DNA of 64,000 bases from the human T2T-CHM13v2.0 reference genome, Homo sapiens, in assembly GCF_009914755.1 (NCBI RefSeq), contig NC_060927.1; one strand, 5' to 3'. Numbering within the stretch: position 1 is the first letter of the stretch; each line of letters begins with the position of its first letter. The notes below the pieces were generated by a model. That model did not search any database. It was not told the DNA's origin and worked only from the letters and a program-made list of their open reading frames with translations. The position numbers and the translations under genes were made by a program. Shown piece by piece: positions 5,301 to 41,437 of this stretch.

Positions 5301-5593
5301 CCTTGAGACCTGGACCTTCTGTGATTCAGAGACTTCTCATGAGGCCTAGATGTTTGGCTTCATCCCATGGGAACTGGCTGCCTGTGAGCCTTGGCTGAGA
5401 CTTCTGTTTTCCTTATTCTTAAGTATATGCTTAAAATAAATCACAGAAATGTTTATTGTGAGTTAGCCCTTCCATAGAGTCTACCTAAAACAAACATCAA
5501 TGTCAAATGGTTTGCCTGCCACTCAGCCTCAATTTTCCTTCATAATGCTTTGGAATAATATGCTGATGTGAACAACCTCCCTTCTGTGCTTAC

Positions 5594-6096
5594 AGTAGTT
5601 TCCAGTTGCTGGTGTAACAAAATTACCACAAACTAAGTGACTTACAACAACACATCTATTTACTTCTAGATCTATAGATCAGAAGACTGACACAAGTTTC
5701 ACCGGGCTAAACTTAAGCTGTTGGAAGGACTGCATTTCTTCTAGAGGCACTAGGGAAGAATGTTTCATTTCATTTTCCAGCAGCTAGAGGCAGTCTGCAT
5801 TTCTTTGCTCTTGGCCTGCTTTCCTCACGTTCCAAGTCAATCATCACATCACACCAAACTCTCCTCCCCAGCATCAGATCTCCTTCTCTAGTTCTGACTC
5901 TCTAGCTTTCCTCTTTCATTCACAAGACCCTTGTGATTACATCGGCCTACCTGGATAATCTGGAATAATCCCCCCATAATCAAGATTCTTAATTTAATCA
6001 CATCTGCCAAGTCCTTTTTGGTGTGTAAGGTAATATATTCACAAGTTCCAGGGATTAGGATGTGGACATTTTTGAAGGACTATTCTGCCTACCACA
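5594..6096 (-). mobile_element. MaLR LTR, MLT1C-like solo LTR
   Basis: Characteristic ends ...gtaacaaaattaccacaaact... and ...gggattaggatgtggacat...attctgcctaccaca. Confidence 0.75.
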
Positions 6097-8259
6097 AAGA
6101 TAAAGTAAAGGCCCTTGCCTAATGGACCACTTTTTCAAACTCGTTCATGGGAATGAACAATTCATCTCCTTTCTATAAATAAAAATATCCAGAACAATAA
6201 GAGAGAACAAACAACTACACATAAATGTACCTTCTATTGGTTGTCCTCAGTGGAACTAGAGACTCCTAGGTTTGAGATTATTTTTTCTCCCACATTATTT
6301 TTAATGAAAAACTTTAAACATACAGAAAAGTTGGAAGAATTATACACTAAACACCTTCATACCAAATGTGTATATTCTATAAACATTTTGCTCTTTTTGC
6401 TTTGTCACTCAGCTATCTAGCTATCTATCCTTCTATTCACCAATTGATTCATATTTCTGATACATTTCAAAGTAAATTGCAGATATCCATATACCTCACC
6501 CCTAAATAATTCAGTGTACATATTAGTAACTATAGTTCAATATTGGTTTATGATGCTTTTTTGAGATTTATATAGAATGAAATGCACAACCCATAATATT
6601 TGAGATATCCATGCACCTGTGCAAACCAAACCCCTACCAAAATACAGAACATTGTTATTGCCCAGAAAGTTTCTTCATGTACCTTCTCAGTCTATCCCTG
6701 CCCACACTCACTTCCAGAAGCAATGACTATTCCGATGTTTCTTTACTACCATAAATGTGGGTTGTTGAGTTTTGAAATTACTGTATTTATATCAAGAATC
6801 GGTAGAATGAGGTCCTAACACTCAATTACCAATTTGGTTCTGGTTTGCTTCTGTAGCTTGTTGCTTCTCTGTTGCACTGACAACATTTCCTGTGGCCATT
6901 TGCTAATCAGATGTCACCTGGGACATTCTGCCGGAAACTACATGAATAAAAATTATTTGACGCAAAAAGACAAAAACATAAAACAATAGTAGTTTAAAGT
7001 TTAATTAACTGATATGGACCAAAAAAAGAGTATGAGCCTATCTGCAGGGTTTTTTTGGGGGGTAAAACAGAGGAAGAAAAAAACTACCATCACTAAGGTT
7101 TAAAATCTGGTTTTCTCAATTACACCCTGAGTTCTTATTCAACATACAAGTTAATCCTGTGTGGCTGAGAACACAGTTGGAGAAGTTAGCAAAATATACT
7201 TTGGAGTCAGATAAGGTTGTATTTTAGGTTTAGTAGCTGCTGATTTTGGTATTTCATGTAATCTTTCAGAGACCGCTTCTATATCCATAAAATGGAGAAG
7301 ATAATATGTATTTCTTAGTTTGAGAATTTGAGATAAAAATATCAAGCACCTGGCAAAATATCTAGCTCATTGTGGTACTCAATACATTGTTGATATTAAC
7401 ATTCTACTACATCATATTACATCATAGTAGTATCGGTATCATATTATTGTGCTTATTAAAATTAATTTGGCCAATGGAGAAAGAAAAACAAATTTTTAAA
7501 CCCAGGAAATTCTGGACAACTCAGTTCTAATTTGTTTTCGTTCAAGAAAGTTTTTTGTTAAATTGGGACCACGAAGTAATTTTCAAAGTCTCTGGACTAT
7601 AAATGTGAAAAGAAAGACTAAAATTTCAAGAGGGTGACATAGGAGGAAAAAAGGCTAACATTTGCTGGTTGATTTCCTGCAGGTTCTCCCAGGTCCTAGA
7701 GTTATTTTTCTGGACAAGTATTTTTGTTCTCTAGGAAATGGCAAGGAACAAAGCCATAGATTAAATTATCTAAGAAAAACTTGCTAAAGGAAATGTGATG
7801 TTCTAATTATGAGGTCTGATGATCTGGAGAGCTTAAGTCGTAATGTTCAAACCTGGGCTTCCTTTCTCTTCATTTATTTTTAGGAGAAAAACAAATCAAC
7901 CCTTAGGAAGGAGAATCCATGACAAACATCAGTTGCATTACCTAATCAGGGGTCCAGTCCAAACGATTGGTTTCCTACCATTTTTAGCAAAAGATCTGCA
8001 TCCCAGTCTCAGTGCTATAACCAAATAACTATGGAATCAAAGAAGTCTCTCAGATTTTCCCACCAGTTTCCATTCCTGTCAAAAGGAATAGTTTTTGCAC
8101 TGAAAACTATCGTTTGCATCAATTTATAGATAGCAGATCTTTTTTGATACCCTATACCACATACCCTCAGGCCACCTCTGTGCACCCTAATGGCATCCCA
8201 CCTCAAGACCAAGCTGTCTCTTTCCACGTTTTCATCCCAGGTCACAGTCATCAAATGAC

Positions 8260-32697: not shown

Positions 32698-32886
32698 TAA
32701 TAGCTCTCAGAGTGTGATCTTTAGACCAACAGCATCAGCATCACCTGGGAAGAGGTTAAAAAATGCAAATTCTTAGTTCACATTTTAAATTTACTAAATT
32801 AGAAATTCAGAGTGGGGGCCCAGCAGTCTATGTTTAACAAGTCTTGTAGGTGATACTGATGGAGCTGAAGTTTGACAGCCACAGGC
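32698..32886. mobile_element. MER5A hAT-Charlie DNA transposon
   Basis: ctctcagagtgtgatc...cagcatcagcatcacctggg...aaatgcaaattct...tttaacaagtc...ggtgatactgatg...aagtttga. Confidence 0.75.
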
Positions 32887-33241
32887 GTAGCATATCCCAG
32901 AATATAGTACTGACACAATTCCCTGTATTAAAAGTCAGAAATTTTACAAAATTTTAGCTTTTTTGTTTTAAATTTAGGCAGCAATGGGACACCACCTGAG
33001 CTAGTAGACAATTGTACCAAAATATAGATGGGTATCACGTGGACACTACTAATTGAGCAGAGGAATGACAGAGCAATAAGTAATACAAGAAATTGTGCTA
33101 GCCTCCTTTGACAAGTGTTTTATGTATCAATAAGCAGTAATGGATAGGACTAAGCCTAGTACAAATGCATTTCTTACACAGGACATGTAAATATCAGGAG
33201 CATGACTATTCTGCATGAGCAATTGTTTTAAAAAACCTTAA

Positions 33242-33763
33242 TTCCTCTTTGAGCCCCCTCCCTTTGTATGGGAGCTCTGTTTTCACTCCATTAAATCTTG
33301 CAACTGCACTCTTCTGGTCCGTGTTTGTTATGGTTCAAGCTGAGCTTTCGCTTGCTCTCCACCACTGCTGTTTGCCGCAGTCACAGACCCGCCGCTGACT
33401 TCCATCCCTCCAGATCTGGCAGGGTGTCCGCTGTGCTCCTGATCCAGCACAGGCGCCCATTGCCTCTCCCAATTGGGCTAAAGGCTTGCCATTGTTCCTG
33501 CACAGCTAAGTGCCTGGGTTCATCCTAATCGAGCTGAACACTAGTCACTGGGTTCCACGGTTCTCTTCCATGACCCATGGCTTCTAATAGAGCTATAACA
33601 CTCACTGCATGGTCCAAGATTCCATTCCTTGGAATCCGTGAGACCAAGAACCCCAGGTCAGAGAACACAAGGCTTGCCACCATGTTGGAAGCAGCCCACC
33701 ACCATTTTGGAAGCGGCCCGCCACTATCTTGGGAGCTCTGGGAGCAAGGACCCCCAGGTAACA
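33242..33763 (+). mobile_element. LTR17 R-U5 only (U3 promoter absent)
   Basis: cccctccctttgtatgggagctctgttttcactc, ATTAAA at 33290-33295, tcttgcaactgca; ends ...ccccaggtaaCA at 33763. Confidence 0.9.
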
Positions 33764-33766
33764 ATT

Positions 33767-33784
33767 TGGTGACCACGAAGGGAC
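33767..33784 (+). promoter_or_regulatory. Retroviral primer-binding site (TGGTGACCACGAAGGGAC), probably tRNA-Arg type; partial second copy at 33793-33808
   Basis: 18 nt starting TGG, 3 nt after the LTR CA. One transition away from the complement of a tRNA-Arg(UCG) 3' end as recalled. Confidence 0.7.
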
Positions 33785-33818
33785 CTGAATCCGCAACCAT
33801 GAAGGGATCTCCAAAGCA

Positions 33819-35290
33819 ATTGGAAATGTTCCTCCCAAGGCAAAAATGCCCCTAAGATGTATTCTGGAGAATTGGGACCAATTTGACCCTCAGACAGTAA
33901 GAAAAAAAATGACTTATATTCTTCTGCAGTACCGCCTGGCCACGATATCCTCTTCAAGGGGGAGAAACCTGGCCTCCTGAGGGAAGTATAAATTATAACA
34001 CCATCTTACAGCTAGACCTGTTTTGTAGAAAAGGAGGCAAATGGAGTGAAGTGCCATATTTACAAACTTTCTTTTCATTAAAAGACAACTCGCAATTATG
34101 TAAACAGTGTGATTTGTGTCCTACAGGAAGCCCTCAGATCTACCTCCCTACCCCGGCATCTCCCTGACTCCTTCCCCAACTAATAAGGACCCACTTCAAC
34201 CCAAACAGTCCAAAAGGAGATAGACAAAGCGGTAAACAATGAACCAAAGAGTGCCAATATTCCCCGATTATGCCCCCTCCAGCAGTGGGAGGAGGAGAAT
34301 TCAGCCCAGCCAGAGTGCATGTACCTTTTTCTCTCTCAGACTTAAAGCAAACTAAAATAGACCTAGGTAAATTCTCAGATAACCCTGATGGCTATATTGA
34401 TGTTTTACAAGGGTTAGGACAATCCTTTGATCTGACATGGAGAGATATAATGTTACTGCTAAATCAGACACTAACCCCAAATGACAAAAGTGCTGCCATA
34501 ACTGCAGCCCAAGAGTTTGGCAATCTCTACTATCTCAGTCAGGTCAATGATAGGATAACAACAGAGGAAAGAGAATGATTCCCCACAGGCCAGCAGGCAG
34601 TTCCCAGTGTAGACCCTTATTGGGACACAGAATCGGAACATGGAGATTGGTGCCATAGACATTTGCTAACTTGCATGCTAGAAGGACAAAGGAAAACTAG
34701 GAAGAAGCCTATGAATTACTCAATGATGTCCACTATAACACAGGGAAAGAAAGAAAATCCTACCGCCTTTCTGGAGAGACTAAAGGAGGCATTGAGAAAG
34801 CATGCCTCTCTGTCACCTGACTCTATTGAAGGCCAACTAGTCTTAAAGGATAAGTTTATCACTCAGTCAGCTGCAGACATTAGAAAAAAACTTCCAAAGT
34901 CCACCTTAGGCCTGGAGCAAAACTTAGAAACCCTATTGAACTTGGCAACCTGGGTTTTTTATAATAGAGATCAGGAGGAGCAGGTAGAACGGGACAAATA
35001 GGATTTAAAAAAAAAAAAAAAGGATTTAAAAAAGTCATGGCCCTCAGGCAAGCGGACTTTGGAGGCTCTGGGAAAGAGAAAAGCTGGGCAAATCAAATGC
35101 CTAATAGGGCTTGCTTCCAGTGCGGTCTACAAGGATGCTTTAAAAAAGATTGTCCTAGTAGAAATAAGCCACCCCCTCATCCATATCCCTTATGTCAAGG
35201 GAATCACTGGAAGGCCCACTGCCCCAGGGAATGAAGGTCCTCTGAGTCAGAAGCCACTAACCAGATGATCCAGCAGCAGGACTGAGGGTG
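33819..35290 (+). pseudogene. HERV-W gag, multiply disrupted
   Basis: Fragments VHVPFSLSDLKQ...FSDNPDGYIDVLQGLG, major-homology-region QGKKENPTAFLERLKEAL, degenerate zinc knuckle CFQCGLQGCFKKDC. Start ATG appears as ATT; several stops and frameshifts. Confidence 0.9.
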
Positions 35291-35989
35291 CCCAGGGCAA
35301 ACGCCAGCCCATGCCATCACTCTCACAGAACCCTAGGTATGCTTGACCATTGAGGACCAGGAGGTTAACTGTCTCCTGGACACTGGCGCAGCCTTCTCAG
35401 TCTTATTCTCCTGTCCCAGACAACTAGCCTCCAGATCTGTCACTATCTGAGGGGTCCTAGGACAGCCAGTCACTAGATAGTTCTCCCAGCCACTAAGTTG
35501 TGACTGGAGAACTTTACTCTTTTCACATGCTTTTCTAATTATGCCTGAAAGCCCCACTCCCTTGTTAGGGAGAGACATTCTAGCAAAAGCAGGGGCCATT
35601 ATACACCTGAACATAGGAGAACACCTGCTTGTTGTCCCCTGCTTGAGGAAGGAATTAATCCTGAAGTCTGGGCAACAGGACAATATGGATGAGCAAAGAA
35701 TGCCTGTCCTGTTCAAGTTAAACAAGAGGGGCTGGGTGTGGTGGCTCATGCCTGTAATCCCAGCATTTTGGGAGGCTGAGGTGGGGGGATCACGAGGTCA
35801 GGAGATCCAGACCATCCTGGCTAACGTGGTGAAACCCCGTCTCTACTAAAAAATACAAAAAATTAGCCAGGCATGGTGGTGGGCACCTGTAGTCCCAGCT
35901 ACTCGGGAGGCTGAGGCAGGAGAATGGCAGGAACCCGGGAGGCGGAGCTTGCACTGCACTCCAGCCTGGGCGACAGAGGGAGACTCCGT

Positions 35990-36022
<33 letters not shown>

Positions 36023-37221
36023 GGATTCCACCTCCTTTCCCTACCAAAAGCAGTACCCCCTTAGACCTGAGGCCCAACAAGGACTCCAAAAGATTAAGGA
36101 CCTAAAAGCCCAAGGCCTAGTAAAAGCATGCAGTAGCCCCTGCAATACTCCAATTTTAGGAGTACAGAAACACAACGGACAGTGGAGCTTAGTGCAAGAT
36201 CTCAAGATTATCAGTGAGGCCATTGTCCCTCTATACCCAGCTGTACCTAACCCTTATACTCTGCTTTCCCAAATACCAGAGGAAGCAGAGTGGTTTACAG
36301 TCCTGGACCTTAAGAATGCCTTTTTCGGCATCCCTGTACATCCTGACTCTCAATTCTTGTTTGCCTTTGAAGATCCTTCGAACCCAACATCTCAACTCAC
36401 CTGGACTGTTTTACCCCAAGGGTTCAGGGATAGCCTCCATCTATTTGGCCAGGCATTAGCCCAAGACTTGAGCTGGTTCTCATACTTAGACACTCTTGTC
36501 CTTTGGTACGTGAATGAAATCACTTTTAGCTGTCCGTTCAGAAACCTTATGCCATCAAGCCACCCAAATGCTCTTAAATTTCCTTGCTACCTGTGGCTAC
36601 AAGGTTTTCAAACCAAAGGCTCAGCTCTGCTCACAGCAGGTTAAATACTTAGGGCTAAAATTATCCAAAGGCACCAGGGCCCTCAGTGAGGAATGTATCC
36701 AGCCTATACTGGCTTATCCTCATCCCAAAACCCTAAAGCAACTAAGAGGGTTCCTTGGCATAACAGGTTTCTGCCGAATATGGATCCCCAGGTATGGCAA
36801 AATAGCCAGACCATTATATACACTAATTAAGGAAACTCAGAAAGCCAATACCCATTTAGTAAGATGGACACCTGAAGCAGAAGCAGCTTTCCAGGCCCTA
36901 AAGAAGGCCCTAACTCATGACCCATTGTTAAGTTTGCCAACGGGGCAAGACTTTTCTTTATATGTCACAGAAAAAACAGAAATAGCTCTAGGAGTCCTTA
37001 CACAGGTCCGAGGGATGAGATTGCAACCCATGGCACACCTGAGTAAGGAAATTGATGGAGTGGCAAAGGGTTGGCCTCATTGTTTACGGGTAGTGGTAGC
37101 AGTAGCAGTCTTAGTATCTGAAGCAGTTAAAATAATACAAGGAAGAGATCTTACTGTGTGGACATCTCATGATGTGAACAGCATACTCACTGCTAAAGGA
37201 GACTTGTGGCTGTCAGACAAC
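35291..37221 (+). pseudogene. HERV-W pro-pol remnant (protease, RT, tether; RNase H and integrase missing), interrupted by AluY
   Basis: Protease LLDTGA near 35375, RT LDLKNAFF and LPQGFRDS. The YVDD motif is altered to YVNE with a frameshift at 36507-36520. Confidence 0.9.
35730..36018 (+). mobile_element. AluY-type element inserted in HERV-W pol, with about 19-nt right-arm deletion
   Basis: Y diagnostics ggatcacgaggtcaggagat, gagaatggc...ggcggagcttgca. Degenerate TSD aaacaagagg / aaaattaagg. Confidence 0.93.
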
Positions 37222-37253
37222 TATGAGGAAATTAACTAAAATCATAAATCCCC

Positions 37254-38652
37254 ATGGCCCTCCCTTATCATATTTTTCTCTTTACTATTTTCTTAACCCC
37301 TTTCACTCTCACTGCACCCCCTCCATGCCACTGTACGACTAGTAACTCCCCTTACCAAGAGCTTCTATGGAGAATGCAGCTTCCCAGAAATATTAATGCC
37401 CCATCGTATAGGAGTTTATCTAAGGGAAACCCCACCTTCACCGCCCACACCCACATGCTCCGCAACTGCTATAACTCTGCCACTTTTTGCATGCATGCAA
37501 ATACTCATTATTGGACAGAGAAAATGATTAATCCTAGTTGTCCTGGAGGACTTGGAGCCACTGTTTGTTGGACTGACTTCATCCATGTCTGATAGGGGTG
37601 GAGTTCAAGAGCAGGTATGTCTGATGGTGGTGGAGTTCAAGATCAGGCAAGAGAAAAACATGTAAAGGAAGTAATCTCCCAGCTGACCCGGGTACATAAT
37701 ACCCCTAGCCCCTACAAAGGAACAGATCTCTCAAAACTACATGAAACCCTCTGTACCCATACTCGCCTGGTAAGCCTATTTAATAGCACCCTCACTGGGC
37801 TCCATGTGGTCTCGGCCCAAAACTCTACTAACTGTTGGATGTGCCTCCCCCTGCACTCCAGGTCATACATTTCAATCCCTGTACCTGAACAATGGAACAA
37901 CTTCAGCACAGAAATAAACACCACTTCCATTTTAGTAGGACCTCTTGTTTCCAATCTGGAAATAACCCATACCTCAAACCTCACCTGTGTAAAATTTAGT
38001 AATACTATAGACACGACCAAATCCCAATGCATCAGGTGGGTAACTCCTCCCACACGAATAGTCTGCCTACCCTTAGGAATATTTTTTGTCTTTGGTAGCT
38101 TAGCCTATCGTTGTCTGAATGGCTTTTCAGAACCTATGTGCTTCCTCTCATTCTTAGTGCCCCCTATGACCATTTACACTGAACAATATTTATACAATTA
38201 TGTCATACCTAAGCCCCACAACAAAACAGTACTCATTCTTCCTTTTGTTATCAGAGCAGGAGTGCTAGGTGGGCTAAGTACTGGCATTGGCGGTATCACA
38301 ACCTCTACTCAGTTCTACTACAAACTATCTCAAGAACTAAAGGGTGACATGGAACAGGTCACCGACTCCCTGGTCACCTTGCAAGATCAACTTAATTCCC
38401 TAGCAGCGGTAGTCCTTCAAAATTGAAGAGCTTTAGACTTGCTAACCACTGAAAGAGGGGGAACCTGTTTTTTTTTTTTAGGGGAAGAATGCTGTTATTA
38501 TGTTAATCAATCCGGAGTTAATCATTCCAAGAAAGTTAATCAATCTGGAGTTAATCAATCTGAGAAAGTTAAAGAAATTGGAGATCAAATACAATGTAGA
38601 GCAGAGAAGCTTCAAAACACTGGACCCTGGGGCCTCCTCAGACAATGGATGC
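37254..38652 (+). pseudogene. HERV-W env (syncytin-1 family) pseudogene
   Basis: In-frame ORFs 37254-37592 and 37617-38426. SDGGGVQDQAR motif and CWMC present. Furin site RNKR changed to HNKT, stop in the immunosuppressive domain (LQN*RALDLL), truncated at GLLRQWM. Confidence 0.95.
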
Positions 38653-39462
38653 GAAGGATATGAACAGACACTTCTCAAAAAAAGACATTTATGTGGCCAA
38701 CAAACATATGAGAAAAAGCATATCATCACTGATGATTAGAGAAATGCAAATCAAAACCACAGTGAGATACCATCTCATACCAGTGAGAATGGCAATCATT
38801 AAAAAGTCAGGAAACAACAGAGGCAGAAGAGGATGTGGAGAAATAGGAATGCTTTTACACTGTTAGTGGGAGTGTAAATTAGTTCAACCATTGTGGAAGA
38901 CATTGTGGTTTTTTTTCAAGGATCTACAACCAGAAATACCATTTGACCCAGCAATCCCATTACTGGCTATATACCCAAAGGATTATAAATCATTCTGCTA
39001 TAAAGACACATGCACACGTATGTTTATTGCGGCACTATTTACAATAGCAAAGACTTGGAACCAACCCAAATGCCCATCAGTGATAGACTGGATAAAGAAA
39101 ATGTGGCACATATACACTATGGAATACTATGCAGCCATAGGGATGAGTTCATGTCCTTTGCAGGGACATGAATGAAGCTGGAAACCATCATTCTCAGCAA
39201 ACTAACACAAGAACAGAAAACCAAACACCGCATGTTCTCACTTATATGAATAATGAGAACACATGGACACAGGCAGGGGAATATCAAACACTGGGGCCTG
39301 TTGGGGGGTAACAGGGGGCTGGGGGAGATAGCATTAGGAGAAATACCTAATGTAGATGACAGGTTGATGGGTGCCGCAAACCACCATGGCACGTGTATAC
39401 CTATATAAAAAATCTTCATGTTCTGCATGTATATCCCAGAACTTAAAGTATAATTTTAAAAA

Positions 39463-39514
<52 letters not shown>

Positions 39515-39519
39515 AAAAG
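38651..39519 (+). mobile_element. L1PA7/L1PA8-type 3' end fused directly to HERV-W env
   Basis: gcgaaggatatgaacagacacttctc... 3' UTR diagnostics aatgtagatgacaggttgatgggtg, aaaccaccatggcac and tatcccagaacttaaag, then an A-rich tail. Confidence 0.92.
39462..39513 (+). repeat. (AAAG)n microsatellite, 13 units, derived from the L1 tail
   Basis: Read directly. Confidence 0.95.
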
Positions 39520-41437
39520 ACTCTAAGAATATCAAAATGCCCCAACCACATGAAGCTACACTCCAAAGCCAGAGAGTTGCAAGCTACTAGAGGCTAGCTC
39601 AGGCTTTCAACAGGGGCCCATATTAGGGATTTATTTATGTTACCTTATTTAATCTCCATGACAGTGAGTTTGATATCATTCTCATTACACTTTGAATGAT
39701 AAAATTAAAGCCTGGAGAGGTTAATCCACTTGCTCCTGTCACACATTAAAAGAGCTGTGATTCAAACCCAGGTTAGTTCGAGTATAAAAGTTCATACTAT
39801 TCCCAGTATGTTATGCTGATTCCCTTGTATAAAGACACGTATAAATTATGCAAAATTTCAGAAACAGATGACCTTCTTTTTTTACCATTAGTATGAATGA
39901 TTGCTTATTATAAATATTAATATCACTTTAAGTTTCCTCCATTGGCTTTATTGTCATGAAAAATGTGTTCCCCTTACTGCCAGAAAACTCTTCATCTATG
40001 TGAGACTAGATTAGTCATTTCACAATTTTTAGTCACTACCTTCATGTGTGCCATCTTCATGACTTTTGCTTTTTCAAAGTTGGCAGCTACAACGGATTGC
40101 CATTATTACCTGCCACAAATAAAACACATTCATAGAAATATAAATTAAACAATTACATTAGATCCTAGCTAGATGATGTTCTCTCTCATTTTGGTGAAAA
40201 TAGAGATTAACAAGCATTCCAGAAGTGGTACAAAAAAAAAAAAAACTAATATCAATCTGAAACTTCCTGCTTAACATAACCAGGGAACACCATTTAGGAG
40301 GTAATGTTATTTAATGTCTTATCCAGGTACTAACTAAAATCATATCATATGCCACTGAAGATCATTTCCTGTAGTCTCCAGTGGTAGTTCTACCATACTT
40401 TAGGAAATAACCAAAATATTTTCATGACTTTCTGGTCCTACAATTTCATTAAAAAAATTTCTACTTATGCCTTCAACAACCCACCTTTTACATAAATTAA
40501 TGATATTCAGGCAGCACTCAGCAATGTGTGGGTGTGTCATAAATAGTGGTAGTGGATTAATAATACATACTTCACCCTCATTTGAAGGTACACTAATGAT
40601 CAGAATACGAGAAAGCAAGTTGTCCAATTTGCTTGTAACTTTAACAGTTCCCTGAAACTGAGTATGTCTCCAGTGACTAGGAACAAACCCTGAAAAAAAA
40701 TCTGCCTGTCAAAACAGAATGCAACTCACATCAGCTCAAAATATTGGGAGGAAATTGACCTGGCTATTCTCTACCAAGTAAAATGCACTATCAATTCACA
40801 TCTAGAGTTTATCTGTGATTGCCTTCCAAATGTTCCTTTCTGCCTCCCAGAAATATTTTATTTATATCAAAGAGTTAAGGGAGACAATTCCTCGGGAGAA
40901 AGAAAAGGCTATGCAGAAAAAGAATGACCATATCTGCTTGTATTCTGCTTGCTTTCCTCAAACCACGAACATTAAGACAATGAATGATATATTGGAGAAA
41001 CTGATGACAAAGTCAGTGTACTTCATAAGAGTCCTTAAGAACTGTTCTCTGCTGACTGGCTTCACTACAGTTAGGCAAAAGCTCCCAGATATGCAAATAC
41101 TGGTGGTTTTCAAGTAAAAATGTCCCTTCTATTAATATTTCCAATTACCCTCCTGGGAAATTTCATCTGAAAAATTCATTAGATACAATTTGCACCTCCA
41201 TAAATTTTGTTCTCTTTCATGGCCTTGAGAGTTAGTGGAGAGCAAGCATGAATGATTTAGCAAAGCAAGTGACCAAATATCATGCTTAGTTTTAAGTCAT
41301 AGCTGAAGATACTATGCGAAGGAACCAGAAGATACTAGCAGAAAGGTCAAGGAGAAAATCCTTGAAAGGGAGTCCCTCATATCTAGTGTAACTGTATGTC
41401 ATCCAAACTGGAATAAATTTATAAAATGAAGAGGGAC

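What the first reader, a model, noticed from the sequence alone, without database searches (positions are those of the whole stretch)
33230..39526. Probable single-event HERV-W/LINE-1 chimeric retrotranscript (L1 template switch onto a spliced retroviral mRNA)
Seen in sequence: the HERV-W copy starts in R, as an mRNA would. Env stops at ...ctcagacaatggatGC and continues with no filler into L1 GCgaaggatatgaacag (2-nt microhomology, 38651-38652). The missing env tail and 3' LTR do not reappear after the L1 tail. The 5' flank is an L1 endonuclease site (TTTT/AAAA, 33226-33233). The 12-mers aaaaaaccttaa (33230-33241) and aaaagactctaa (39515-39526) match 9/12 with only transitions. Established: L1 ORF2p makes chimeras such as U6-L1, with an L1 3' end and a cellular RNA 5' part inside one TSD. 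HERV-W is known for L1-made processed pseudogenes, which normally end in U3-R-poly(A). L1PA7/8 activity roughly overlaps the HERV-W invasion. Inference: TPRT began on L1 RNA and after about 0.8 kb jumped into HERV-W env, then copied about 5.1 kb to the 5' end. This would be an unusually long ERV-L1 chimera.
Basis: partly seen in the sequence, partly recalled or inferred. Interest (0 to 1): 0.8.

Follow-up and report, generated by a model that had tools for sequence, protein, structure and literature searches.

The report
HERV-W retrocopy fused to L1 tail
An ancient retrovirus-derived RNA copy on human chromosome 3 lacks its own tail and ends in the tail of a LINE-1 element, most likely because the LINE-1 copying enzyme hopped from one RNA to the other during a single insertion, though this still needs a monkey genome to prove.

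Summary
The locus is the published HERV-W element 3p24.1.

- **5' end:** it has no U3 and starts in R at 33244, 14 bp after a TTTT/AAAAAA L1 endonuclease site.
- **Internal structure:** the 2.1-kb leader intron is removed exactly at its splice sites. The copy also carries a 1.83-kb pol-env deletion shared with 7 other loci, and a later Alu.
- **Junction:** env breaks at about codon 443 of a normal env (codon 466 of this copy) and joins a co-oriented L1 through a 2-nt GC overlap. The L1 begins at ORF2p residue 1074.
- **3' end:** 805 nt of L1, then a poly(A)/(AAAG)n tail.
- **What is missing:** the last ~0.68 kb of HERV-W RNA is nowhere in the window, and the junction is unique in the genome.
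- **Age:** the L1 and HERV-W parts are equally diverged (0.076 vs 0.065-0.070).
- **Target-site duplication:** the 9/12 match is weak. 17% of control sites do as well; 0.5% do if only transitions are allowed, a criterion chosen after the fact.

Best reading (about 0.58): one L1 insertion event that switched template from L1 RNA into a spliced HERV-W RNA. Rivals are a later L1 insertion with target deletion (0.25) and a retrocopy of a fusion transcript (0.1). The decisive Old World monkey empty-site test could not be run here. This is a new member of a known kind, of moderate interest.

The parts
33226..33233 (+). L1 endonuclease target TTTT/AAAA at the 5' flank
   Evidence: Read. The 8-mer occurs 14 times in 64,000 bases. 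One lying 7-20 bp upstream of a given point is expected in about 0.3% of cases (my arithmetic).
33230..33241 (+). Candidate 5' copy of the target-site duplication (12 nt)
   Evidence: Matches 39515-39526 at 9/12, with all 3 mismatches transitions. Null rate is 17% for 9/12 or more, and 4 of 816 with transitions only.
33242..33243 (+). Two extra bases (TT) between the candidate TSD and the retroviral sequence
   Evidence: They match neither the R start of 4 other processed pseudogenes nor the 3' flank. That they are untemplated 5'-junction nucleotides is inference.
33244..33763 (+). HERV-W 5' LTR without U3 (R-U5), starting 5-7 nt inside R
   Evidence: 29 of 29 LTR17 alignments start at 33244. 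The match to the ERVWE1 LTR runs to 33763.
33764..33818 (+). Primer-binding/leader exon up to the splice donor, containing a private ~24-nt duplication
   Evidence: Comparison with ERVWE1. 9 other loci share an intron-less junction but are about 26 nt shorter here.
33819..35723 (+). Sequence after the splice acceptor: pre-gag, gag, pro and start of pol. The exon-exon junction is 33818|33819.
   Evidence: ERVWE1 positions 294-2380 of L069 (reverse complement) are absent, bounded by AAAGTG/GTGAGT and TTTTCAG/ATGGG. Gag_p30 match, E 1.3e-16.
35724..36018 (+). Alu inserted later into pol, with an A26 tail
   Evidence: It interrupts the colinear match to ERVWE1. A-run at 35993-36018. Alu-like translation. 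The Alu identity is recalled; no library was searched.
36019..37222 (+). pol (reverse transcriptase and RNase H), ending at a 1.83-kb pol-env deletion
   Evidence: RVT_1 and RT_RNaseH_2 matches. ERVWE1 positions 5434-7268 are absent, with ACAAC at both edges. The same junction is contiguous in 7 other loci.
37254..38652 (+). env from its ATG to about codon 443 of a normal env: 466 codons here because of two private tandem duplications (37585-37647 and 38502-38572), one reading frame with in-frame stops
   Evidence: TLV_coat match to profile position 526 of 560. ORFs, duplications. Matches '3p24.1: 466 aa, 2 stops, 0 shifts' in PMC5016936 Table 5.
38651..38652 (+). GC shared by env and L1 (junction microhomology)
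   Evidence: 27 of 29 env copies and 4 of 7 L1 copies have GC at this place.
38653..39457 (+). 5'-truncated L1: the last ~200 codons of ORF2 plus the 3' UTR, same orientation as HERV-W
   Evidence: ORF2p residues 1074-1236 of 1275, E 8e-33 and 1.4e-52. 10,598 first-look genomic candidates, best 88-90% identical.
39458..39514 (+). Poly(A) tail degenerated into an (AAAG)n microsatellite
   Evidence: TRF: 39458-39516, period 4, 14.8 copies.
39515..39526 (+). Candidate 3' copy of the target-site duplication
   Evidence: Same evidence as the 5' copy.

Best explanation
This is one L1-mediated insertion (target-primed reverse transcription) that made a two-part cDNA.

Proposed sequence of events:
1. 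L1 endonuclease nicked the TTTT/AAAAAA site.
2. ORF2p began on the poly(A) tail of an L1 RNA and copied its last ~805 nt.
3. It then left that template at ORF2 codon ~1074 and resumed, through a 2-nt GC overlap, on an internal site of a HERV-W RNA, at about env codon 443.
4. It copied ~5.1 kb to within 5-7 nt of the RNA's 5' end (R).
5. The product was sealed about 12 bp downstream of the nick, with 2 extra bases at the 5' junction.

The HERV-W template was a transcript of a pol-env-deleted provirus whose 2.1-kb leader intron had been spliced out. An Alu entered pol later, and the tail decayed into (AAAG)n.

Shown: the anatomy, the splice, the junction, the endonuclease site and the equal divergence of the parts. 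Inferred: that both parts arrived in one event, and that the join was made by template switching rather than on a pre-formed fusion RNA.
For: - **mRNA-type 5' end:** no U3; 29 of 29 LTR alignments start at 33244; 4 other processed pseudogenes start 5-7 nt earlier.
- **Spliced template:** the leader intron is removed exactly at GTGAGT...TTTTCAG.
- **Endonuclease site:** TTTTAAAA lies 14 bp before the element, and occurs 14 times in 64 kb.
- **Junction:** a direct, co-oriented join to a 5'-truncated L1 with poly(A) and 2-nt microhomology.
- **No simple insertion:** there is no remnant of the missing ~678 nt (env tail, U3, R, measured on L012) anywhere in the window.
- **TSD candidate:** it flanks the whole unit, 9/12 with only transitions. 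4 of 816 control sites match as well with transitions only.
- **Equal divergence:** ML terminal branches are 0.076 for L1 (793 nt), 0.0646 for env (1434 nt) and 0.0705 for R-U5.
- **Published orthologues:** the HERV-W part is 5394 bp in chimpanzee and 5419 bp in gibbon against 5409 bp here, and is marked absent in rhesus (PMC5775608 Table S1). The truncated state therefore predates the ape radiation.
- **No fusion source:** only the locus itself spans the junction among 40 scored hits of 1953 candidates.
- **Private duplications:** this copy has 2 private tandem duplications of 10 nt or more in env, against 2 in 17 other copies together. This fits a slippage-prone reverse transcription, though weakly.
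Against: - On match count alone the TSD is not significant: 17% of 816 control flanks reach 9/12. The transitions-only criterion was chosen after seeing the data.
- Two unexplained bases separate the TSD from R.
- The endonuclease site, R start and splice are equally expected if an ordinary HERV-W processed pseudogene was later hit by an L1.
- An L1 insertion at that pseudogene's poly(A) with an upstream target deletion would even keep the old TSD.
- Equal divergence does not exclude two events a few million years apart.
- The L1 branch is nominally longer than the env branch (0.076 vs 0.065). The L1 subfamily was not determined.
- The rhesus 'x' is a literature table entry that I did not verify.
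- PMC5016936 Table 5 stars this locus as a provirus. That disagrees with the sequence, and I could not see their Table S1 row.
Confidence: 0.58

Rival explanations
1. Two events. An ordinary HERV-W processed pseudogene (R-U5 ... env-U3-R-poly(A), with its own TSD) inserted first. A 5'-truncated L1 then integrated at or downstream of its poly(A), with a target-site deletion of 0.7 kb or more (L1 insertion-mediated deletion). Alternatively, an unrelated deletion later fused env to a nearby co-oriented L1.
For: - Everything at the 5' side (R start, splice, TTTT/AAAA) is what a normal pseudogene has (definition quoted in PMC5016936).
- 2-nt microhomology is also typical of the 5' joins of truncated L1s (recalled).
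- The TSD match is within chance by count (17%).
- If the L1 primed on the pseudogene's own poly(A), the old 3' TSD would survive and mimic a shared TSD (inference).
Against: - It needs a second, rare kind of event within a short window: between the insertion (absent in rhesus) and the gibbon split, since gibbon already has the 5.4-kb extent.
- No trace of an intermediate exists.
- The L1 is not younger than the HERV-W part by divergence.
- For variants that delete the old TSD, the transitions-only 9/12 match would be a 4-in-816 coincidence.
Confidence: 0.25
2. A single insertion of a pre-formed fusion RNA. A transcribed HERV-W provirus had acquired a sense-oriented truncated L1 inside env. 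Transcription from the LTR ended at the L1 polyadenylation signal, and this RNA was spliced and retrotransposed in trans like any HERV-W pseudogene.
For: It gives the identical structure, including a shared TSD. The template came from a distinct pol-env-deleted lineage (7 other loci), and proviruses are easily lost by solo-LTR formation (established knowledge). The junction shows no GT/AG signals, so splicing did not make it, but an ordinary L1 5' join in the source would look like this.
Against: No locus in the T2T genome carries this env/L1 junction apart from the window (1 of 40 scored hits, 1953 candidates). It also requires an L1 hit in env of one of the few active source proviruses within the short period of HERV-W retrotransposition (inference).
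Confidence: 0.1
3. An older L1 was already there. A HERV-W cDNA was primed internally, at a break or nick inside that L1 (endonuclease-independent or microhomology-primed insertion), which is why it lacks a poly(A) end of its own.
For: The L1 terminal branch is nominally the longest (0.076 vs 0.065). Endonuclease-independent insertions are known to be 3'-truncated and to lack TSDs (recalled).
Against: The 5' end sits 14 bp after a perfect TTTT/AAAAAA site, which is expected in about 0.3% of places. The poly(A) end has a candidate matching TSD. The branch-length difference is within sampling error.
Confidence: 0.03

Closest known systems
L1 chimeric retrocopies (U6/L1, other small RNA/L1, Alu/L1 and mRNA/L1 chimeras). 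Catalogued most recently in PMC11838501, of which I read term-search passages only. The earlier work by Buzdin and by Gilbert and colleagues is recalled.
   Same: The 3' part is a 5'-truncated L1 with poly(A). The 5' part is a copy of another RNA in the same orientation, joined without filler and reaching that RNA's 5' end. There is an L1 endonuclease site and a candidate single TSD around the whole unit.
   Different: The partner is a spliced retroviral RNA, and the acceptor point is internal (0.68 kb from its 3' end), not the 3' end of a small RNA or an exon boundary. The post-switch cDNA is ~5.1 kb, far longer than U6 or the 153-bp example quoted in PMC11838501. The words HERV, ERV and retrovir do not occur in that paper's main text; its supplements were not seen.
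HERV-W (LTR17/HERV17) processed pseudogenes made by L1. 135 of 213 HERV-W loci are of this type (PMC5016936, passages; definition after Pavlicek et al. as quoted there).
   Same: R-U5 5' end without U3, TT/AAAA target, a poly(A) at the 3' end, and derivation from a transcript. This locus is their 3p24.1.
   Different: There is no U3-R 3' LTR. The poly(A) belongs to an L1 3' end. The leader intron is removed, which is shared with 9 other loci.
L1 insertion-mediated deletions (recalled: Gilbert 2002, Symer 2002, Han 2005)
   Same: A truncated L1 whose 5' end abuts a target sequence that lacks its expected continuation, joined by microhomology.
   Different: Such events leave no TSD and remove pre-existing DNA. 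Here a candidate TSD brackets the HERV-W plus L1 unit, and no pre-existing state is documented.

Membership tests
HERV-W L1-processed pseudogene (criteria quoted in PMC5016936) | 5' LTR is R-U5, starting near LTR17 nt 256, with no U3 | tested here: met
   29 of 29 alignments start at 33244. The upstream sequence is unrelated to U3. 4 other pseudogenes start 5-7 nt earlier.
HERV-W L1-processed pseudogene (criteria quoted in PMC5016936) | 3' LTR is U3-R, ending near nt 326 and followed by poly(A) | tested here: not met
   No env tail, U3 or R occurs 3' of 38652 anywhere in the window. The poly(A) follows an L1 3' end.
HERV-W L1-processed pseudogene (criteria quoted in PMC5016936) | TT/AAAA insertion motif | tested here: met
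   TTTT/AAAAAA at 33226-33235.
HERV-W L1-processed pseudogene (criteria quoted in PMC5016936) | Target-site duplication of 5-15 bp | tested here: inconclusive
   9/12 match. The null rate is 17% by count, and 4 of 816 with transitions only.
L1 chimeric retrocopy (5' foreign RNA + 3' L1) | 3' part is a 5'-truncated L1 ending in poly(A) | tested here: met
   ORF2p residues 1074-1236 of 1275, then the 3' UTR and an A-rich tail.
L1 chimeric retrocopy (5' foreign RNA + 3' L1) | 5' part is a copy of a processed RNA, co-oriented and joined directly | tested here: met
   Spliced leader, R start, no filler, 2-nt overlap.
L1 chimeric retrocopy (5' foreign RNA + 3' L1) | One TSD and one endonuclease site bracket both parts | tested here: inconclusive
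   The endonuclease site is present. The TSD is weak.
L1 chimeric retrocopy (5' foreign RNA + 3' L1) | Both parts arrive together, against an empty site in the outgroup | not testable with these tools
   No primate genomes are held. The only data are literature table rows for the HERV-W part: present from chimpanzee to gibbon, 'x' in rhesus.
L1 insertion-mediated deletion | No TSD, and the outgroup carries DNA that is missing at the L1's 5' junction | not testable with these tools
   Needs the orthologous site in species that predate the L1. The flanks have no paralogue in the genome from which to rebuild the empty site: the right flank is unique, and the left-flank repeat ends 350 bp away.

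The most novel reading that the evidence does not exclude
The locus may be a fossil of one unusually jump-prone L1 reverse-transcription run. ORF2p switched from its own RNA onto an internal site of a spliced HERV-W RNA lying in the same particle, copied 5.1 kb, and slipped three more times on the way, leaving the three old private tandem duplications of 24-36 nt. If so, HERV-W RNA sat physically inside L1 ribonucleoprotein particles. That would bear on the open question, stated in PMC8554740, of why only this HERV group was mobilised by L1 on a large scale. It would also be the first documented retroviral-RNA/L1 chimera.
Probability: 0.25. Interest if true: 0.55.

Novelty: new member of a known kind. 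Interest (0 to 1): 0.4.

Why it matters
HERV-W is the one human endogenous retrovirus group that L1 copied in bulk, and the reason is unknown (PMC8554740, passages).

A chimera made by template switching would show that HERV-W RNA was close enough to an elongating ORF2p to be captured mid-reaction, and that ORF2p can continue for 5 kb after a switch onto an internal site.

It also corrects how this locus is read. It is starred as a provirus in one published table, and it contributes a 466-codon env fragment and a 100% match to part of an MSRV clone (PMC5016936). Knowing that it is a retrocopy with an L1 3' end and L1 polyadenylation signal matters for anyone assigning HERV-W transcripts to loci.

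If the two-step rival is right, the locus is an ordinary rearranged repeat.

Tried and rejected
- **Rebuilding the empty site from paralogues.** The right flank (39512-40100) is unique in the genome, and the left flank's only repeat lies at 32700-32890, far from the junction. This was not possible.
- **Simple L1 insertion into env.** Rejected: the env tail does not resume after the L1, and there is no TSD around the L1 alone (reading).
- **Junction made by cis- or trans-splicing.** Rejected: there is no GT after the env break in 29 other copies and no AG before the L1 entry point in 7 L1 copies.
- **pol-env gap as a splice private to this RNA.** Rejected as private: the same junction is contiguous in 7 other loci, some of them listed as proviruses in PMC5016936. 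Its edges share ACAAC.
- **The 36-nt env duplication shared with locus 6q21a (L012).** Rejected: L012 has a different 30-nt duplication.
- **L1 subfamily.** No repeat library was available. A majority comparison with the 20 nearest L1 copies gave 7.7% (61/791), against 3.2-5.4% for those copies. Many of the differences lie at decayed CpG sites, so no label is given.
- **PMC5016936 Table S1.** The cell holding the rows was cut, so the published type and age of 3p24.1 were not seen.
- **Pfam on the two L1 ORF2 pieces.** No family found. Identity came from the PDB sequence search instead.


Full report
**What the window is**

The window is human chr3 (T2T-CHM13). The genome is searchable as G000.

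The element at 33244-38652 is the published HERV-W locus 3p24.1. Its env reading frame runs 466 codons from the ATG at 37254 to the break at 38652, with in-frame stops and no frameshift. This matches the entry '3p24.1: 466 aa, 2 stops, 0 shifts' in Table 5 of PMC5016936 (passage seen).

Pfam finds Gag_p30, RVT_1, RNase H-like and TLV_coat domains in the expected order.

**5' end**

BLAST of 33150-33400 against 29 other LTR17 copies gives alignments that all begin at 33244 (query position 95-98), and none extends upstream.

- 25 of the 29 copies have U3, with its TATA box, in front of this point.
- 4 copies (L046, L047, L056, L060) have unrelated flanks and begin 5-7 nt earlier. They are processed pseudogenes, and they mark the RNA 5' end.

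The window copy therefore has no U3 and starts 5-7 nt inside R. Fourteen bases upstream lies TTTT/AAAAAA. TTTTAAAA occurs 14 times in the 64,000 bases, so such a site 7-20 bp from a given point is expected in about 0.3% of cases. The HERV-W sequence arrived by endonuclease-dependent L1 retrotransposition of an RNA, not by retroviral integration. PMC5016936 Table 5 stars the locus as a provirus, and the sequence does not support that. I could not see their Table S1 row, because the cell was cut.

**Internal structure**

I mapped the copy against a full-length copy (L069, the 7q21.2 locus).

- **Leader intron.** A 2.09-kb stretch between a GTGAGT donor and a TTTTCAG acceptor is missing exactly, with the junction at 33818|33819. 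The template was a spliced RNA. Nine other loci among 39 other scored hits share an intron-less junction.
- **Alu.** An Alu with an A26 tail interrupts pol at 35724-36018.
- **pol-env deletion.** A 1.83-kb stretch ending 43 nt before the env ATG is missing, with ACAAC at both edges. Seven other loci among 39 other scored hits have the same contiguous junction. It is an inherited deletion of a lineage, not a private splice.
- No locus appears in both lists.
- **Private tandem duplications.** There are three: ~24 nt in the leader, 32 nt at 37585-37647 and 33-36 nt at 38502-38572. In env this copy has 2 private insertions of 10 nt or more, against 2 in 17 other copies together. The repeat units are about 10% diverged, so the duplications are old.

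**The junction**

All 29 other env copies continue past the break into the env tail, and 27 of 29 have GC at the two junction bases. Of 7 L1 copies, 4 have GC just before the (A/G)AAGG. The join is direct, with 2-nt microhomology at 38651-38652.

Translation from 38654 matches human L1 ORF2p residues 1074-1143 (E 8e-33), and translation from 38867 matches residues 1145-1236 of 1275 (E 1.4e-52). The L1 body ends at about 39457 and is followed by a tail that is now (AAAG)14.8.

There are no splice signals at the junction.

Measured on the canonical pseudogene L012, the HERV-W RNA missing beyond the break is ~678 nt (env tail, U3, R), followed there by A10. None of it occurs anywhere in the window.

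The junction is unique. Of 40 scored hits (1953 candidates), only the locus itself spans it.

**One event or two**

*The TSD.* The only in-sequence discriminator is a TSD bracketing both parts. The 12-mers at 33230-33241 and 39515-39526 match 9/12 with three transitions.

- Against 816 control flanks that start with a run of 5-8 A (rest of the window and all fetched loci), 17% reach 9/12 or more.
- Only 4 of 816 do so with transitions alone. That criterion was set after seeing the data.
- Given about 13-15% expected divergence between two copies of this age, 3 differences in 12 is unremarkable for a true TSD.
- I take this as a modest likelihood ratio in favour of a real TSD, not as proof.

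*Divergence.* ML terminal branches are:

| Part | Length (nt) | Window copy | Comparison copies |
|---|---|---|---|
| L1 | 793 | 0.076 | 20 nearest L1 copies: 0.029-0.053 |
| env | 1434 | 0.0646 | 17 other copies: 0.024-0.061 (12 of 29 loci dropped for under 80% coverage) |
| R-U5 | not noted | 0.0705 | 29 other LTR17 copies: 0.030-0.144 |

. The parts are equally old within sampling error. The L1 is not a much later arrival.

*Published orthologues.* In PMC5775608 Table S1 (row seen) the HERV-W part spans 5394 bp in chimpanzee and 5419 bp in gibbon, against 5409 bp here, and is marked 'x' in rhesus. The env truncation therefore predates the gibbon split, and any second event had only the interval between the monkey and gibbon splits.

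**Weighing**

All 5' features are equally expected for an ordinary pseudogene later hit by an L1. An L1 that primed on that pseudogene's poly(A) and deleted ~0.7 kb upstream would even retain the old TSD. That rival needs a rare class of event in a short window.

A fusion transcript from a provirus carrying an L1 in env would give the same product, but no such source exists in this genome.

Insertion of HERV-W cDNA into an older L1 is disfavoured by the endonuclease site and the tail-side TSD candidate.

From rough prior rates, which are my inference and use recalled frequencies of chimeras and of L1-mediated deletions, I put:

- template-switch chimera: about 0.58
- two-step origin: about 0.25
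- fusion-RNA retrocopy: about 0.10
- L1-first origin: about 0.03

**Comparison with what is known**

The structure works like the L1 chimeric retrocopies (U6/L1, mRNA/L1). It meets their testable criteria except the TSD (inconclusive) and contemporaneous arrival (not testable here). It fails one defining criterion of HERV-W processed pseudogenes, the U3-R 3' end.

Searches of the paper library for HERV-W with 3p24.1, for chimeric retrogenes and template switching, and for HERV-W with chimeric, template switch and LINE-1 together found no description of a HERV-W/L1 chimera.

The main text of the 2025 catalogue of L1 chimeras (PMC11838501, term searches only) contains no occurrence of HERV, ERV or retrovir. 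Its supplements were not seen, and older subscription papers are not in the library.

I therefore rate the locus as a new member of a known kind, of moderate interest, with a cheap decisive test: the monkey empty site.

Noticed in passing
window 33786-33810, 37585-37647, 38502-38572: Three old tandem duplications of 24-36 nt are private to this HERV-W copy. In env there are 2 private insertions of 10 nt or more here, against 2 in 17 other copies together. The repeat units are ~10% diverged, so the duplications date from about the time of insertion. They may be slippage during reverse transcription. This is unexplained.
   Followed up: partly
window 33244-38652 (literature): PMC5016936 Table 5 marks locus 3p24.1 with the asterisk used for proviruses. 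The sequence has no U3, starts in R and sits at a TT/AAAA site, which fits a processed-pseudogene type. The paper's own Table S1 row could not be read because the cell was cut.
   Followed up: partly
window 37217-37222: A 1.83-kb pol-env deletion with ACAAC at both edges ends 43 nt before the env ATG. It is shared by 7 other HERV-W loci, including ones listed with near-full-length env in PMC5016936 Table 5. This points to a replicating or repeatedly transcribed integrase-less lineage.
   Followed up: partly
window 35724-36018: A sense-oriented Alu with an A26 tail is inserted in pol. The published gibbon orthologue length (5419 bp) implies that it was already present before the gibbon split. 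Its subfamily was not determined.
   Followed up: no
window 37217-38650 and 38653-39445: This copy has the longest terminal branch of 18 env copies (0.0646). Its L1 part has the longest of 21 L1 copies (0.076). Yet the locus is reported absent from rhesus, i.e. among the younger HERV-W loci. Possible causes are a locally high substitution rate, a divergent unsampled source, or an error in the rhesus call.
   Followed up: no
window 33441-33836 approx. (literature): PMC5016936 Table 6 reports that nt 198-593 of the MSRV clone AF123880 match locus 3p24.1 at 100% (1 mismatch). This suggests that the retrocopy is, or was, transcribed, or that the clone is a mosaic.
   Followed up: no
window 32700-32890: An old interspersed repeat matches many loci at 70-78% identity. 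It was not identified. It ends about 350 bp before the insertion site.
   Followed up: no
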